Assembly: GCF_032656605.1 (NCBI RefSeq)
Contig: NZ_JAUYWK010000003.1
Location: forward strand, 393,411-425,410
Reading direction: 5' to 3'
Origin: Streptomyces sasae
Lineage (GTDB): Bacteria > Actinomycetota > Actinomycetes > Streptomycetales > Streptomycetaceae
DNA: 32,000 nt
Both the position numbers and the translations under genes were made by a program. Numbering within the stretch: position 1 is the first letter of the stretch; each line of letters begins with the position of its first letter. The notes under the pieces are model-generated. The model had not been told where the DNA came from, made no database searches, and was given only the letters and a program-made list of their open reading frames with translations. Below are positions 17,298-28,694 of the stretch, one piece after another.

Positions 17298-19011
<1,714 letters not shown>

Positions 19012-21997: not shown

Positions 21998-22180
21998 GCC
22001 GCCGCCCGGATTGACCCGTCGACAGAAGTGCATCGGCAGGAGTGGAGGACCCAAGCACGACGGGTCGCCGGAACGGTCACGCCATGACCGGGCCGAGCTG
22101 CCCTTGGGGTGAAGCCGTGGCGACACGGCCGGGCAACTTCGCCAGCCCGAATCCGACAGGTCATCCTTCACAGGCGGCTG
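21998..22180 (+). promoter_or_regulatory. Cyclic-di-AMP riboswitch (ydaO-yuaA motif)
   Basis: Hallmark blocks in the right order: GGAGGACCCA (22045-22054), GGGGUGAAGCC (22106-22116), CCCGAAUCCGACAGG...CCUUCACAGGCGG (22146-22177). The closing stem GCCGCC (about 22001-22006) pairs with GGCGGC (22173-22178). It lies immediately upstream of an NlpC/P60 gene, the usual actinobacterial context. Confidence 0.7.
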
Positions 22181-22194
22181 ACGAAGGGTTGCGC

Positions 22195-25780: not shown

Positions 25781-26238
25781 TCACACCCTAGACTGAAGAT
25801 CGTCTCTCACTGCACGGACCGGCCGCGCCCCCAGGCGGCGCCGACGCGAGTCAGTGGCTGCTGCCGCGCGACCGCACAGCGAAGCGCCTGTAACCGACGC
25901 GCCGAAGACGGTGGTGAAGGTCCGCAGTGCCCCTGGGGTGCGGTCCAGGGCCCAGGCCGCGGTTGAAGTGTGGTGGTCAGGAAGCGGCAGGACTCGGGGC
26001 CGATCACGAACAGCTCTGCCCGGCGGCCGGAGGTGTCGGCGGCGAGCATCACGAGGTCGTTGAAGGTTTGGCGCTTGCGCATGGCGTCCGCGCCGCGCCA
26101 ACGAGCGAGCTTGAACTCCGCGATGCGCTGGTCTGTCTCCAGGTCGTACGGGCGGCTCGGGTCGTTGCCGGCGCCGAGGGAGGGGCAGACGGTGATGCGT
26201 TCTTCATCCCCGAGTTGGTGACCAGCAGGTTGCGCCAC
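25781..26238 (-). pseudogene. Frameshifted remnant of a gene with a PD-(D/E)xK-like motif
   Basis: Strong GC3 coding signal for HQLGDEERITVCPSLGAGNDPSRPYDLETDQRIAEFKLARWRGADAMRKRQTFNDLVMLAADTSGRRAELFVIGPESCRFL (D...E-x-K pattern: YDL...AEFK). At about 25975-25990 the coding signal jumps to another frame (STAAWALDRTPGALRTFTTVFGASV...). No clean start codon. Confidence 0.4.
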
Positions 26239-26843
26239 CGAACCCCGGACGCCGGCGCATAGTCGGGCCTGGGCACCACGGCAGGGGCGGGCGGCGGCGG
26301 AACCTGGACGCCCGCGCGACAGGGGGCTGGAGCTCGTACAGATCGTCACCGGCCACCCATTCCCGAGTCGTGCCCGTGACGTGCGGCCCGAGCGTCTGCA
26401 GGGCCGCCTCGAACGTCGCGGCGACCGACTCGCTGACCCCGGCCGCGTCACCGGGAGAGAGCCTGGCGGTCAACCGGTCCTTGTGCCCGGTGGTCGCGAA
26501 CGTGGCATCCGCCGCCTCCTGGCCCTGGTCCGGCTGCGGCGCCTCAAGAGCAGGCACCGGAACGTCCAGGAATCGGGCCAGGCCGGACAGTGTGGCCGCA
26601 CGGTCGGCGACATGCCGCTCGTACGGGATGACCAGCCGAGGCCGAGCCTCGTTGGCCGGGCCGTGCAACGATCTGGCCAGCAGCAGAGCGTTGACCGCGA
26701 TCAGCCGCCCCCAGGCAGTGAACGGGTCCGGGCCGTCGTCCGGCAGCAGTGCCGCGAACGACGCACGCCAGCGCGGGGCACGGGCCGACGCCGACACCTG
26801 CGCGTACCGGTCGCCGTACCGCCAGCGCTCCCACAGCCCCCCC
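26204..26843 (-). pseudogene. C-terminal part of a sulfotransferase-like gene split by the IS110 element
   Basis: LWERWRYGDRYAQVSASARAPRW...RPRLVIPYERHVADRAATLSGLARFLDVP resembles sulfotransferase C-terminal regions. It continues the reading frame of fragment 28322-28694 across the IS (…SSFARGG | LWERW…). The tail after DDLYELQPP looks out of frame. Confidence 0.5.
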
Positions 26844-27101
26844 GTTATGTTCTTCGCGGTCCTGCAAGAGGGCCGCTGGCCTCCGGGCCCGGCATGGCTG
26901 TTCCCCCCTGTCGAACGGATGACCTGGGGGGTGGTGCCACCGGGCCCGAGAGGCGCCGTTGGAGACGCTGATGAGAGGTCCGACTACCGCCCGGCCGAGC
27001 GCAATGCCCGGCCGTACATGGGCGACAGGTCTGCATAACGTGGATGCGCGCACGACGCCAACGCCCAGGCCAGCACCGCACGCCCCGTTCGGGAGGACGG
27101 C
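26844..27101 (+). ncRNA. Candidate bridge (guide) RNA region in the IS110 left end
   Basis: IS110-group elements encode their bridge RNA in the long non-coding end upstream of the recombinase (established 2024). This region has no credible ORF. It contains a C6 (26903-26908) / G6 (26926-26931) pair and short matches to both IS ends (CATAACG 27034-27040; AGAGGC 26949-26954). Confidence 0.35.
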
Positions 27102-28304
27102 TTGAACGAGCACGACGAGATAGGCGTTTTCCTCGGCCTGGATGTCGGGAAGAGCGCTCATCACGGACACGGACTCACTCCGGCCGGCAAGAAGGTCTTC
27201 GACAAGCAGCTGCCCAACACCGAACCGAAGCTGAGGCAGGTCTTCGACAAGCTCCGCGAGAAGTTCGGCATCGTTCTGGTCGTCGTGGACCAGCCAGCCT
27301 CAATCGGCGCCCTGCCGCTGACGGTGGCTCGCGACACGGGCTGCCAGGTCGCCTATCTGCCGGGCCTGTCGATGCGTCGGATCGCTGACCTCTACCCGGG
27401 TGAGGCGAAGACCGACGCCCGCGACGCGGCCGTCATCGCGGACGCCGCCCGCACCATGCCGCACACCCTGCGCTCGCTGGAGCTGACCGACGAGATCACC
27501 GCCGAGCTCACCGTCCTCGTCGGCTTCGACCAGGACCTGGCGGCCGAGGCCACCCGCACCAGCAACCGGATCCGGGGCCTGCTCACCCAGTTCCACCCGT
27601 CCCTGGAACGGGTCCTGGGCCCGCGCCTGGATCACCAGGCAGTCACCTGGCTGCTGGAACGGTATGGATCCCCGGCCGCACTGCGGAAGGCCGGACGACG
27701 CAGGCTGGTTGAGGTGGTCCGGCCCAAGGCCCCGCGCATGGCGAAGCGGTTGATCGACGACGTCTTCGAGGCGCTCGACGAGCAGACCGTCGTGGTCCCG
27801 GGCACCGGCACCCTGGACGTCGTGATCCCGTCGCTGGCCCGCTCGCTCGGCGCCGTTCACGAACAAAGGCGGGCGGCGGAAGCCCAGATCAACGCCCTGC
27901 TGGAGGACCACCCTCTTTCCAAGGTCCTGACGTCGCTGCCCGGCGTCGGCGTCAGGACCGCCGCTGCATTGCTGGTCACCGTCGGCGACGGAACCAGCTT
28001 CCCCACCGCCGCTCACCTGGCCTCCTACGCCGGCCTCGCCCCGACGACGAAGTCGTCGGGGACCTCGATCCACGGCGAACACGCCCCACGCGGCGGCAAC
28101 CGTGTCCTGAAACGCGCGATGTTCCTGTCCGCGTTCGCCGCCCTGCACGACCCCGCCTCCCGCACCTACTACGACAAATGCCGCGCCCGCGGGAAAACCC
28201 ACACCCAGGCACTTCTCCGCCTCGCCCGCCAGCGGATCAACGTGCTGTTCGCGATGCTCCGCGACGGCACCTTCTACGAACCCAGAACCCCACGCCTCGC
28301 TTGA
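27102..28304 (+). CDS. IS110-family transposase/recombinase (DEDD RuvC-like N-domain + Tnp C-domain)
   Basis: IGVFLGLDVGKSAHHG (first Asp), VVVDQPASIGALP, GEAKTDARDAAVIADAAR, SLPGVGVRTAAALL, ASYAGLAPTTKSSGTS, GNRVLKRAMFLSA. TTG 27102 follows GGGAGGA. Confidence 0.92.
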   Translation: MNEHDEIGVFLGLDVGKSAHHGHGLTPAGKKVFDKQLPNTEPKLRQVFDKLREKFGIVLVVVDQPASIGALPLTVARDTGCQVAYLPGLSMRRIADLYPGEAKTDARDAAVIADAARTMPHTLRSLELTDEITAELTVLVGFDQDLAAEATRTSNRIRGLLTQFHPSLERVLGPRLDHQAVTWLLERYGSPAALRKAGRRRLVEVVRPKAPRMAKRLIDDVFEALDEQTVVVPGTGTLDVVIPSLARSLGAVHEQRRAAEAQINALLEDHPLSKVLTSLPGVGVRTAAALLVTVGDGTSFPTAAHLASYAGLAPTTKSSGTSIHGEHAPRGGNRVLKRAMFLSAFAALHDPASRTYYDKCRARGKTHTQALLRLARQRINVLFAMLRDGTFYEPRTPRLA

Positions 28305-28321
28305 CCAAAGACATAGAGGCA

Positions 28322-28694
28322 CCCCCCCCCCCGCGCGAACGACGACGCGATCCCGACGGGGGCCCGGGTCAGGACGATGGCCGGCGACCGAGGCAGGAGC
28401 CCGAGCACCGTGTCGGCCGCGAAGAACAGGTTCGTCTCCTTCACCAGGTGCCGGCCGGGTCCGTGCAGGTCGCACAGCGCACACCAGCTGGTGCCAGCCC
28501 AGCCCGCTCAGCCCGGCCTCGTGCAGGCTCGGCGGGACGCGGTCGGCGGGCGACAGCGGATGCTCCCGGCTCAACTGCTGCCGGAAGGGCTCGTTGTGCT
28601 GCGGCATCGTCTGACGCAGCGAGTCGGACAGCCAGTGCCTGACATGGTTGGCGATCTCGACGCCGCCGAGTGTGAAGTAGTCGAGCAGCGCCAT
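28322..28694 (-). pseudogene. N-terminal part of the sulfotransferase-like gene, with an additional frameshift
   Basis: ATG 28694, MALLDYFTLGGVEIANH...GLSGLGW in one frame with high GC3. The coding signal then moves to the +1 frame (CALCDLHGPGRHLVKETNLFFAADTVLGLLPRSPAIVLTRAPVGIASSFARGG). The shift lies between about 28465 and 28505. The R-x7-S pattern (TRAPVGIASS) resembles the sulfotransferase 3'-phosphate-binding motif. Confidence 0.5.

What the first reader, a model, noticed from the sequence alone, without database searches (positions are those of the whole stretch)
26844..28321. IS110-family element with a candidate bridge RNA and promoter halves split between its two ends
The element has the asymmetric IS110-group layout: a 258-nt non-coding left end, a DEDD recombinase gene and a 17-nt right end.

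**Split promoter.** The right end contains TTGACC (28301-28306, overlapping the stop codon). The left end begins GTTATGTT, with TATGTT at 26846-26851. Joining right end to left end, as in the excised circle, gives TTGACC-N17(+core)-TATGTT, a near-consensus promoter that exists only in the circular form. Junction promoters of this kind are known for IS110-family elements.

**Possible guide RNA.** IS110 recombinases were shown in 2024 to use a bridge RNA encoded in this non-coding end, with loops pairing to target and donor DNA. The left end contains:
- a C6/G6 pair (26903-26908 and 26926-26931) that mirrors the C/G homopolymer target;
- a 7-nt reverse-complement match to the left junction (CATAACG 27034-27040 versus CGTTATG 26843-26849);
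- a 6-nt match to the right end (AGAGGC 26949-26954 versus 28315-28320).

These short matches could be chance, but together they make a testable guide assignment for a Streptomyces IS110 member.
Basis: partly seen in the sequence, partly recalled or inferred. Interest (0 to 1): 0.7.

Follow-up and report, generated by a model that had tools for sequence, protein, structure and literature searches.

The report
Streptomyces IS110 element with bridge RNA
This is an ordinary, intact IS110-family insertion sequence sitting in a run of C's, and comparison with about 100 relatives shows that its left end encodes a guide ("bridge") RNA of the kind described in 2024, whose loops match the poly-C target and the element's own ends.

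Summary
The element (26844-28321) is an intact IS110-family IS. Its transposase is about 92% identical to ISfinder's ISStac1 over the aligned columns. It sits inside a C-run and interrupts a sulfotransferase-like gene.

More than 55 independent insertions of relatives all lie in C-runs. The 258-nt left end folds into a 5' stem-loop plus two long hairpins, and 14 base pairs show compensatory changes.

- **Hairpin 1** carries C6 and G6. These match the target, and their length tracks the flanking C-run lengths.
- **Hairpin 2** carries CAUAACG, complementary to the left terminus. It also carries AGAGG(U) at 26974-79, which matches the right terminus. Both change together with the termini in four diverged sister families.
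It is kept in only 21 of 56 relatives, so it is not a guide.

TTGAC(C/G) lies 15 nt from the right end and TAnnnT lies at left-end positions 3-8. Both are conserved even where the TTGAC is non-coding, and the layout is the same as in IS621. The promoter spacer is 17 plus the number of C's in the circle junction, which sequence alone cannot settle.

This is a new member of a known kind. Transcription and activity were not tested.

The parts
26837..26843 (+). Left half of the poly-C target (7 C)
   Evidence: Read directly. All relatives have at least 4 C immediately left of the element.
26844..28321 (+). IS110-family insertion sequence, 1478 bp, ISStac1-like
   Evidence: Blastn against 80 loci starts and stops at these bases. 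About 92% aa identity to ISStac1 over aligned columns.
26846..26851 (+). TATGTT, candidate -10 half of the circle-junction promoter. It is also part of the donor right arm.
   Evidence: T3, A4 and T8 are conserved in all families as TATGTT, TACCTT or TACCGT. It occupies the same position (left-end bases 3-8) as TATTAT in IS621.
26854..26879 (+). 5' stem-loop of the predicted bridge RNA. By analogy with IS621, the predicted transcription start is near 26858.
   Evidence: RNAalifold helix with compensatory UA<->CG changes in 11 of 56 and 8 of 23 sequences.
26881..26952 (+). Target-binding hairpin (TBL).
   Evidence: 17-pair basal helix, 97% of cells paired, 5 pairs with double changes. Coordinates.
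26900..26908 (+). Left target guide, GUUCCCCCC (C6 at 26903-08)
   Evidence: The length of its C-run (5 or 6) tracks the minimum number of C's left of the element: a=4 in 9 of 21 versus 0 of 24, Fisher p=0.0003. The base 5' of the run (U or G) tends to match the base left of the target run.
26926..26933 (+). Right target guide G6, plus UG
   Evidence: GGGGGGUG is kept in 55 of 56 and is complementary to the observed right junction CA-CCCCCC. The right-flank C-run has mode 6 (23 of 55) and is followed by a purine in 23 of 23 of those.
26958..27056 (+). Donor-binding hairpin (DBL)
   Evidence: The outer helix has GC<->AU at 10 versus 10 sequences and four pair types at another pair. The distal stem has CG<->UA in 14 sequences.
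26972..26980 (+). Left donor guide region UGAGAGGUC (AGAGG at 26974-78), same sense as the right end ATAGAGGCA
   Evidence: AGAGG is kept in 56 of 56. It changes A<->G together with the right end: AGAGG/AGAGGCA in family A and in Kitasatospora L099, AGGGG/AGGGGCA in families B, C and D.
27034..27043 (+). Right donor guide CAUAACG, followed by UGG. It is complementary to C+GTTATG at the left junction.
   Evidence: Kept in 55 of 56. It changes to CGUAACG where the left end is GTTACC, and to CGUAAUG where the left end is ATTACC.
27102..28304 (+). DEDD/Ser recombinase gene (400 aa)
   Evidence: PF01548 and PF02371. The C-terminal domain aligns with IS621 and ISCro4 structures, and S319 lies opposite the IS621 catalytic Ser.
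28301..28306 (+). TTGACC, candidate -35 half of the circle-junction promoter
   Evidence: TTGAC(C/G) always lies 15 nt from the right end in all families. This holds in variants where the stop codon is 30-550 nt upstream and the motif is non-coding.
28313..28321 (+). Donor left arm, ATAGAGGCA (right terminus)
   Evidence: Nearly invariant terminus: four of about 60 copies vary in the last 2-3 bases. It matches the DBL 5' loop.
28322..28332 (+). Right half of the poly-C target (11 C)
   Evidence: This is the longest right-hand run among 55 sites.
26204..26836 (-). Downstream part of the interrupted sulfotransferase-like host gene
   Evidence: 99% identical to a 197-aa S. sasae protein, and homologous to intact genes of 380-466 aa. 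Weak Sulfotransfer_3 match.
28333..28694 (-). Upstream part of the same host gene. It also carries a frameshift.

Best explanation
Bases 26844-28321 are an intact IS110-group insertion sequence, a close relative of ISStac1 and ISSam1. It inserts into runs of about 8-11 C.

Its 258-nt left end encodes a bridge RNA of about 200 nt, built from three parts.

- **A 5' stem-loop.**
- **A target-binding hairpin.** Its two loop strands are GUUCCCCCC and GGGGGG(UG). They read the two strands of the C-run.
- **A donor-binding hairpin.** Its 5' loop, (U)GAGAGGU, reads the right terminus ATAGAGGCA. Its 3' loop, CAUAACG, reads the left terminus C|GTTATG.

The RNA, and probably the recombinase, would be transcribed mainly from a promoter that exists only in the excised circle. 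TTGACC from the right end supplies the -35. TATGTT from the left end supplies the -10.

**Shown here:** the element's identity and boundaries, its target preference, the conserved RNA fold, and the co-variation of guides with DNA.

**Inferred by analogy with IS621:** transcription, binding by the recombinase, circle formation and RNA-guided strand exchange.
For: - **Protein and boundaries.** Domains and catalytic Ser are present. Boundaries come from 80 genomic relatives.
- **Target.** All 52 distinct left flanks but two aberrant copies, and all 55 distinct right flanks, are C-runs.
- **Fold.** The structure is conserved: 96.6% of cells are paired, against 41-50% when the partners are slid. 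Fourteen pairs have double changes. The covariation score is 0.321 against 0.06-0.09.
- **Loops versus stems.** Loop sequences are invariant while stems vary.
- **Target guides.** The length of the guide's C-run tracks the left-flank C count, p=0.0003. The right-flank mode of 6 equals the length of G6. The next base is a purine in 23 of 23, opposite the U.
- **Donor guides.** They change with the termini at three positions.
  - Left-end base 1, G/A, pairs with guide C/U.
  - Left-end base 5, T/C, pairs with guide A/G.
  - Right-end AGAGG/AGGGG matches guide AGAGG/AGGGG. The Kitasatospora element matches its right end perfectly over 9 nt.
- **Promoter halves.** They are conserved independently of coding. 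Their layout equals IS621's TTGCAG-N13-CT-TG-TATTAT.
- **Integrated copy.** No sigma-70-type promoter is found in it.
- **Prior prediction.** Durrant et al. place a predicted bridge RNA in the left end of ISStac1 and ISSam1.
Against: - No expression, binding or transposition data exist.
- No Rfam family matches the left end.
- The left end alone does not fold much better than shuffles (z = -1.77).
- In the free RNA the C6 and G6 guides are predicted to pair with each other. The target loop would then be a closed helix rather than an open internal loop.
- The window's left donor guide matches the right end at only 5 Watson-Crick pairs plus one wobble.
- The guide-terminus changes rest on about three independent evolutionary events. 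One of them, guide A/G with left-end T/C, is also compatible with an RNA-RNA pair, 142:200.
- No single register for the crossover fits all four guides, the flank counts and the promoter spacer.
- One decayed relative (L098) breaks one pairing.
Confidence: 0.85

Rival explanations
1. The left-end hairpins are a regulatory leader for the recombinase gene, for example an attenuator, an RBS-masking structure or an antisense target. On this view, choice of the poly-C target is made by the protein alone, and the C6/G6 and terminal matches are by-products.
For: C6 and G6 simply form a helix in every prediction. Helix 7 shows RNA-RNA compensatory changes inside the supposed donor loop, at pairs 142:200 and 143:198. 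All families share the same target, so the target guides show conservation but little base-by-base covariation.
Against: A leader gives no reason for three things.
- A loop base changing C to U exactly where the first base of the element changes G to A.
- The loop AGAGG/AGGGG following the right terminus.
- The guide's C-run length predicting the left-flank C count.

The family's tested members need the RNA for recombination.
Confidence: 0.07
2. The short matches between the left end and the junctions are chance, and the left end holds no guide.
For: AGAGGC occurs in 7.5% of shuffles, and C6 followed by G6 in 3.9%.
Against: CATAACG occurs in 0.6% of shuffles and is kept in 55 of 56 relatives. 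The loops are invariant while the stems drift. The guides change together with the termini in sister families.
Confidence: 0.03
3. The window copy is a structurally intact but currently silent fossil. The integrated form lacks the -35, so neither RNA nor recombinase is made here.
For: No promoter-like site is found in the integrated copy. There is only one copy in the 32-kb window. The nearest relative in the collections is 95% identical, not 100%.
Against: The ORF, both termini and all guide positions equal the family consensus. Single-IS contigs of about 1.5 kb in many draft assemblies point to multicopy, recently active relatives. This is a statement about activity, not a different identity.
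Confidence: 0.3

Closest known systems
IS621 (E. coli) recombinase and bridge RNA (Durrant et al. 2024, PMC11208160; Hiraizumi et al. 2024, PMC11208158)
   Same: - DEDD + Ser recombinase, with a long left end and a short right end.
- An RNA with a 5' stem-loop followed by a target loop and then a donor loop.
- Left guides have the sense of the top strand and right guides are its complement.
- The two bases 3' of the right target guide (UG) are complementary to the last two bases of the donor left arm (CA), like the handshake guides.
- -35 in the right end and -10 at left-end bases 3-8. Compare TTGCAG-N13-CT-TG-TATTAT with TTGACC-N13-CA-(C0-2)-GT-TATGTT.
   Different: - Only the C-terminal domain is recognisably similar by sequence (E = 4.6e-14).
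- The target is a C homopolymer rather than a REP sequence with a CT core.
- The two target guides are complementary to each other, so the target loop is predicted to be closed.
- The RNA is about 200 nt rather than 177 nt.
- The core cannot be read off, because the flanks are homopolymeric.
ISStac1, ISSam1 and IS110 itself (ISfinder entries, as tabulated in Durrant et al. supplementary files 4 and 8)
   Same: The transposase is 307/335 identical to ISStac1 and 289/335 identical to ISSam1 over the columns kept in that table. Both are listed there with the predicted bridge RNA in the left end, and they cluster with IS110.
   Different: It is not identical to any listed entry. The table gives no guide assignment or target for these elements. 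ISStac1 is listed there under the IS1111 group, although its RNA is placed in the left end.
IS1111-group elements
   Same: Same recombinase family, and RNA-guided choice of target.
   Different: According, those carry the RNA in a long right end and have 7-17-bp subterminal inverted repeats. This element has a 17-nt right end and at most a 4-bp subterminal repeat (CATA...TATG).

Membership tests
IS110 family (IS110 group) | N-terminal RuvC-like DEDD domain | tested here: met
   PF01548, full length, E = 1.2e-48.
IS110 family (IS110 group) | C-terminal Tnp domain with catalytic serine | tested here: met
   PF02371, E = 1.9e-21. S319 in KSSG aligns with the ESG serine of IS621.
IS110 family (IS110 group) | Long left non-coding end, short right end, no terminal inverted repeats | tested here: met
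   258 nt versus 17 nt. The ends GTTATGTTCTTC and GACATAGAGGCA are not inverted repeats.
IS110 family (IS110 group) | Sequence-specific insertion around a short core | tested here: met
   All 52 left flanks but two aberrant copies, and all 55 right flanks, are C-runs. The core itself is not resolved.
IS110 family (IS110 group) | Circular intermediate that assembles a junction promoter | not testable with these tools
   Only the two conserved halves and their IS621-like layout can be shown. A metagenome scan for junctions found only neighbouring insertions separated by 5-7 C.
Bridge RNA | Structured RNA in the long non-coding end: 5' stem-loop plus two guide-bearing hairpins | tested here: met
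   Consensus fold with 14 compensatory pairs, and controls. The target loop is predicted to be self-paired.
Bridge RNA | Target loop strands match the left (same sense) and right (complement) halves of the insertion site | tested here: met
   C5-6 and G6 against the C-run.
Bridge RNA | Donor loop strands match the right and left termini and change with them | tested here: met
   Three co-varying positions across five families. One position has an alternative RNA-RNA reading.
Bridge RNA | Transcribed, bound by the recombinase, and required for recombination | not testable with these tools
   No expression or biochemical data.
Bridge RNA | Match to a curated covariance model | tested here: inconclusive
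   No Rfam 15 family matches the left end at E <= 10, apart from a spurious miRNA hairpin hit. Whether Rfam holds a bridge-RNA model is not known to me. Durrant's own models flagged the left end of ISStac1 and ISSam1.

The most novel reading that the evidence does not exclude
The donor and target crossover dinucleotides may be different. If the last two bases of the right end (CA) occupy the core position, the promoter spacer becomes 17 nt and the layout becomes identical to IS621's, while the target core is CC.

The observed junctions are then what inheritance from the top strand alone predicts. No left junction out of about 70 carries CA, and about 57 of 60 right junctions do. Resolution of a Holliday junction on both strands would instead give a 50:50 mix.

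Natural insertions of this family would then be a ready-made record supporting the single-strand (top-strand) insertion model proposed in 2025-26 preprints. The family would also be an example of a bridge RNA whose two target guides are mutually complementary and must be melted to work.
Probability: 0.2. Interest if true: 0.6.

Novelty: new member of a known kind. Interest (0 to 1): 0.38.

Why it matters
The analysis gives a concrete, comparatively supported guide map for a high-GC actinomycete bridge recombinase: which bases read the target and which read the donor. That map could be tested or reprogrammed directly in Streptomyces.

It also documents a homopolymer-targeting member whose target guides pair with each other. 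The family's many natural junctions could bear on the open question of single-strand versus double-strand exchange.

As biology, however, it is an expected instance of a mechanism described in 2024, in an IS lineage already catalogued.

Tried and rejected
1. **Rfam.** Scans of the window and a sensitive scan of the element found no bridge-RNA family. The only hit in the left end was a spurious miRNA hairpin match to the target hairpin.

Rejected. It is a stem strand, it is variable (kept in 21 of 56), and it is unrelated to the invariant right end.

3. **Counting the C's in the circle junction.** Four approaches failed.
   - *Reading frame of interrupted genes.* The window gene needs a run length of 2 mod 3. 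With 18 flanking C's that gives 1, 4... C's in the junction. L047 needs 0 or 3. The two are contradictory, probably because runs drift after insertion. Sister plasmids L198 and L199 differ at the same site.
   - *Empty-site search.* Joined flanks were searched in the plasmid collection. Relatives diverge before the site.
   - *Metagenome pattern scan for right-end/left-end junctions.* Of 97 matches, only two were genuine, and both were neighbouring insertions with 5 and 7 C.
   - *Fitting IS621 guide registers.* Junctions of 0, 1 and 2 C each fit most features, but none fits all.

4. **Literature.** A search for a Streptomyces IS110 bridge-RNA study found nothing relevant.

5. **Cargo ORF.** A Pfam search of the 181-aa cargo ORF in the 1.98-kb relatives gave no match.

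Full report
**What is in the sequence**

The stretch reads ...CAG-C7 | GTTATGTTCTTC ... GACATAGAGGCA | C11-GCGCG....

- The only long ORF in sense is 27102-28304: a TTG start, GGAGG 6 nt upstream, 400 aa.
- It carries both IS110 domains, PF01548 at 1.2e-48 and PF02371 at 1.9e-21.
- Its C-terminal half aligns with the solved IS621 and ISCro4 recombinases. Ser319 lies opposite the catalytic serine.
- The window holds only one copy.

**Boundaries and target**

A protein-guided scan of one genome per species returned 80 loci, almost all Streptomyces, at 83-95% DNA identity. The plasmid collection holds more than 100 further records.

Alignments begin at 26844 and end at 28321 in most loci. Every copy has C's immediately outside both ends.

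- **Right flanks.** Among 55 distinct right flanks the C-run has a mode of 6 (23 sites) and is rarely shorter. At those 23 sites the next base is always a purine.
- **Left flanks.** These hold 4-9 C.
- **Total.** The usual total is 10-12 C. The window, with 7 + 11 = 18, is the extreme.

The element interrupts a sulfotransferase-like gene on the minus strand. The downstream 197 aa are 99% identical to a Streptomyces sasae protein. Intact homologues read ...SSFARG(G/R)LW... at the site.

**Which IS**

Supplementary tables of Durrant et al. 2024 list ISStac1 and ISSam1. Both have transposases that begin VFLGLDVGK...HHGHGLTPAGKKVFDKQLPN. Both have the predicted bridge RNA placed in the left end, and both sit in a cluster with IS110 itself.

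Over the columns kept there, the window protein is 307/335 identical to ISStac1 and 289/335 identical to ISSam1. The element is therefore a close relative of catalogued elements.

**The RNA fold**

Fifty-six distinct left ends align with 89% mean column identity. RNAalifold gives three parts (coordinates):

- a 5' stem-loop (26854-79);
- a long hairpin (26881-26952);
- a second long hairpin (26958-27056).

Four diverged sister families from plasmids, plus a second element in L052, were then added. The consensus keeps the same architecture.

On that alignment 96.6% of cells are paired, against 41-50% when the partners are slid by 1-3 columns. Fourteen pairs carry changes on both sides. The covariation score is 0.321 against 0.06-0.09. 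The stems vary and compensate, while the loop strands are nearly invariant.

Folded alone, the window's left end is only mildly better than shuffles (z = -1.77). No Rfam family matches it.

**Target loop**

In hairpin 1 the strand GUUCCCCCC (26900-08) and the strand GGGGGG-UG (26926-33) flank a 3-bp distal stem.

Under the IS621 rules, the left guide has the sense of the top strand and the right guide is its complement. A C-run target therefore demands exactly C's on the 5' side and G's on the 3' side.

Three observations tie the loop to the target.

1. Lineages whose guide has five C's (GUCCCCC, UGCCCCC) include insertions with only four C's on the left, in 9 of 21. Lineages with six C's never do, 0 of 24 (Fisher p = 0.0003).
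2. In UGCCCCC lineages the base left of the run is G in 10 of 12.
3. The right run has mode 6, which equals the length of G6, and is then followed by a purine opposite the U 5' of G6.

GGGGGGUG is also complementary to the observed right junction CA-CCCCCC. This fits the handshake idea of Hiraizumi et al..

The two guides are complementary to each other, so every prediction pairs them. The target loop of the free RNA is probably closed.

**Donor loop**

In hairpin 2 the 5' loop is UGAUGAGAGGUCC and the 3' loop is UGCAUAACGUGGAU.

CAUAACG is the complement of C|GTTATG, the left junction. It occurs by chance in 0.6% of shuffles and is kept in 55 of 56 left ends.

In sister families the terminus and the loop change together.

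| Element feature | Families | Terminus | Guide loop |
|---|---|---|---|
| Left end | B, D, K | GTTACC | CGUAACG |
| Left end | C (six loci; one, the decayed L098, differs at another loop position) | ATTACC | CGUAAUG |
| Right end | A and Kitasatospora L099 | ATAGAGGCA | AGAGG (L099: AUAGAGGCA, 9 of 9) |
| Right end | B, C, D | ATAGGGGCA | AGGGG (family C: UAGGGGCA, 8 of 8) |

The window's own left donor guide is weaker, with AGAGG plus a U.G wobble.

There are three caveats.

- These are about three independent events.
- The A/G change in the right donor guide also fits an RNA-RNA pair with the 5' loop, columns 142:200.
- One decayed copy (L098) breaks a pair.

It is replaced by GGAGGT, AGGGGT, GGGGTG and other variants in 35 of 56 relatives whose right end is unchanged. 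It is not the guide.

**Promoter halves**

The right end finishes TTGAC(C/G)-N15 in every family. This includes variants whose stop codon lies 30-80 nt upstream, and 1.98-kb variants where it lies about 545 nt upstream. The TTGAC is therefore conserved as non-coding sequence.

The left end keeps T3, A4 and T8, as TATGTT, TACCTT or TACCGT.

I fetched an IS621 copy for comparison. It reads TTGCAG-N13-CT-TG-TATTAT, and the bridge RNA starts at left-end base 15. The window reads TTGACC-N13-CA-(C)n-GT-TATGTT. A start at the same place (26858) falls at the foot of the 5' stem-loop.

The integrated copy has no sigma-70-like promoter. So the split-promoter idea is well supported by conservation and layout. 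The spacer is 17 + n.

**What could not be settled: the crossover register**

Both flanks and possibly the junction are C's, so n cannot be read from sequence.

- **n = 2 (core CC).** This makes both 3' loops parallel, as guide, then core, then handshake, then 2 nt. It satisfies both handshake predictions, UG with donor CA and GG with target CC. It leaves a U opposite the first core base and gives a 19-nt spacer.
- **n = 1.** This makes CAUAACGUG a perfect 9-nt complement of CA-C-GTTATG and gives an 18-nt spacer.
- **n = 0.** This reproduces the IS621 layout exactly, with a 17-nt spacer. It also places the left donor guide in the IS621 register. But it implies unlike cores, CA in the donor and CC in the target.

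With unlike cores the observed junctions would require inheritance from the top strand only. That agrees with the single-strand models in recent preprints. I regard this as an open possibility, not a finding.

Attempts to count n all failed. They used reading frames, empty sites and junction scans.

**Verdict**

One guide assignment is corrected and the spacer is left open. Expression, circle formation and activity are inferred, not shown.

Noticed in passing
window 26837-26843 and 28322-28332: The IS is flanked by 7 + 11 = 18 C, the most among 43 sites (the usual total is 10-12). Intact homologues of the host gene encode only Gly-Gly or Gly-Arg here, which is at most about 8 G in a row. So the run was either unusually long in this strain or has expanded since insertion. 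Sister plasmids L198 and L199 also differ in run length at one shared site.
   Followed up: partly
window 28333-28694 (minus strand): The upstream part of the interrupted sulfotransferase-like gene also needs a frameshift near 28480 to stay aligned with its homologues (...GWHQLV / CALCDLHG...). The gene is decaying, or there is a sequencing error.
   Followed up: partly
window 18566-18858 (+): Rfam match to 5_ureB_sRNA (71.8 bits; gathering score 40), presumably lying over a urease gene.
   Followed up: no
window 22010-22191 (+): Rfam match to the c-di-AMP riboswitch (ydaO/yuaA leader), 41.9 bits against a gathering score of 38, with a large insertion in one stem.
   Followed up: no
L099 100-2080 (Kitasatospora plasmid); L100 reverse strand 125-2104; L085: Relatives of about 1.98 kb carry about 545 nt between the recombinase stop codon and the conserved right end. 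This stretch encodes a 181-aa antisense ORF with no Pfam match, so it is a small cargo-bearing variant of the same IS lineage.
   Followed up: partly
L198 and L199 (S. albidoflavus and Streptomyces sp. GBA 94-10 plasmids), right flank: The IS sits at the first unit of a CRISPR-like array. The repeat is GGAGCACCCCCGCAGGCGCGGGGCCGAC, with spacers of about 32 nt. The C5 run of the repeat apparently served as the target.
   Followed up: partly
L052 1508-1560, L053 left flank, L200 left flank, L127, L133: These are head-to-tail neighbours: the right end of one element, then 5-8 C, then the left end of another element, often from a different sister family. Each insertion recreates C-runs on both sides, so copies attract further copies.
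   Followed up: partly
L019 424-560; L081 1700-1950; L087, L094, L097: These are aberrant copies. One is a hybrid left end, with an ATTACC-type start and target hairpin joined to a family-A donor hairpin. The others are degenerate or truncated solo left ends without a recombinase gene.
   Followed up: no
L202 1380-1480 (E. coli IS621 locus): One IS621 left end is interrupted by another IS621 left end, exactly after ATCGGGCCT. That is the DNA encoding its own left target guide, which mimics the target.
   Followed up: no
window 27300-28694 (minus strand): A 464-aa ORF runs antisense through the recombinase gene. It is an Arg/Gly/Pro-rich artefact of high G+C content and is not evidence of a gene.
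   Followed up: no
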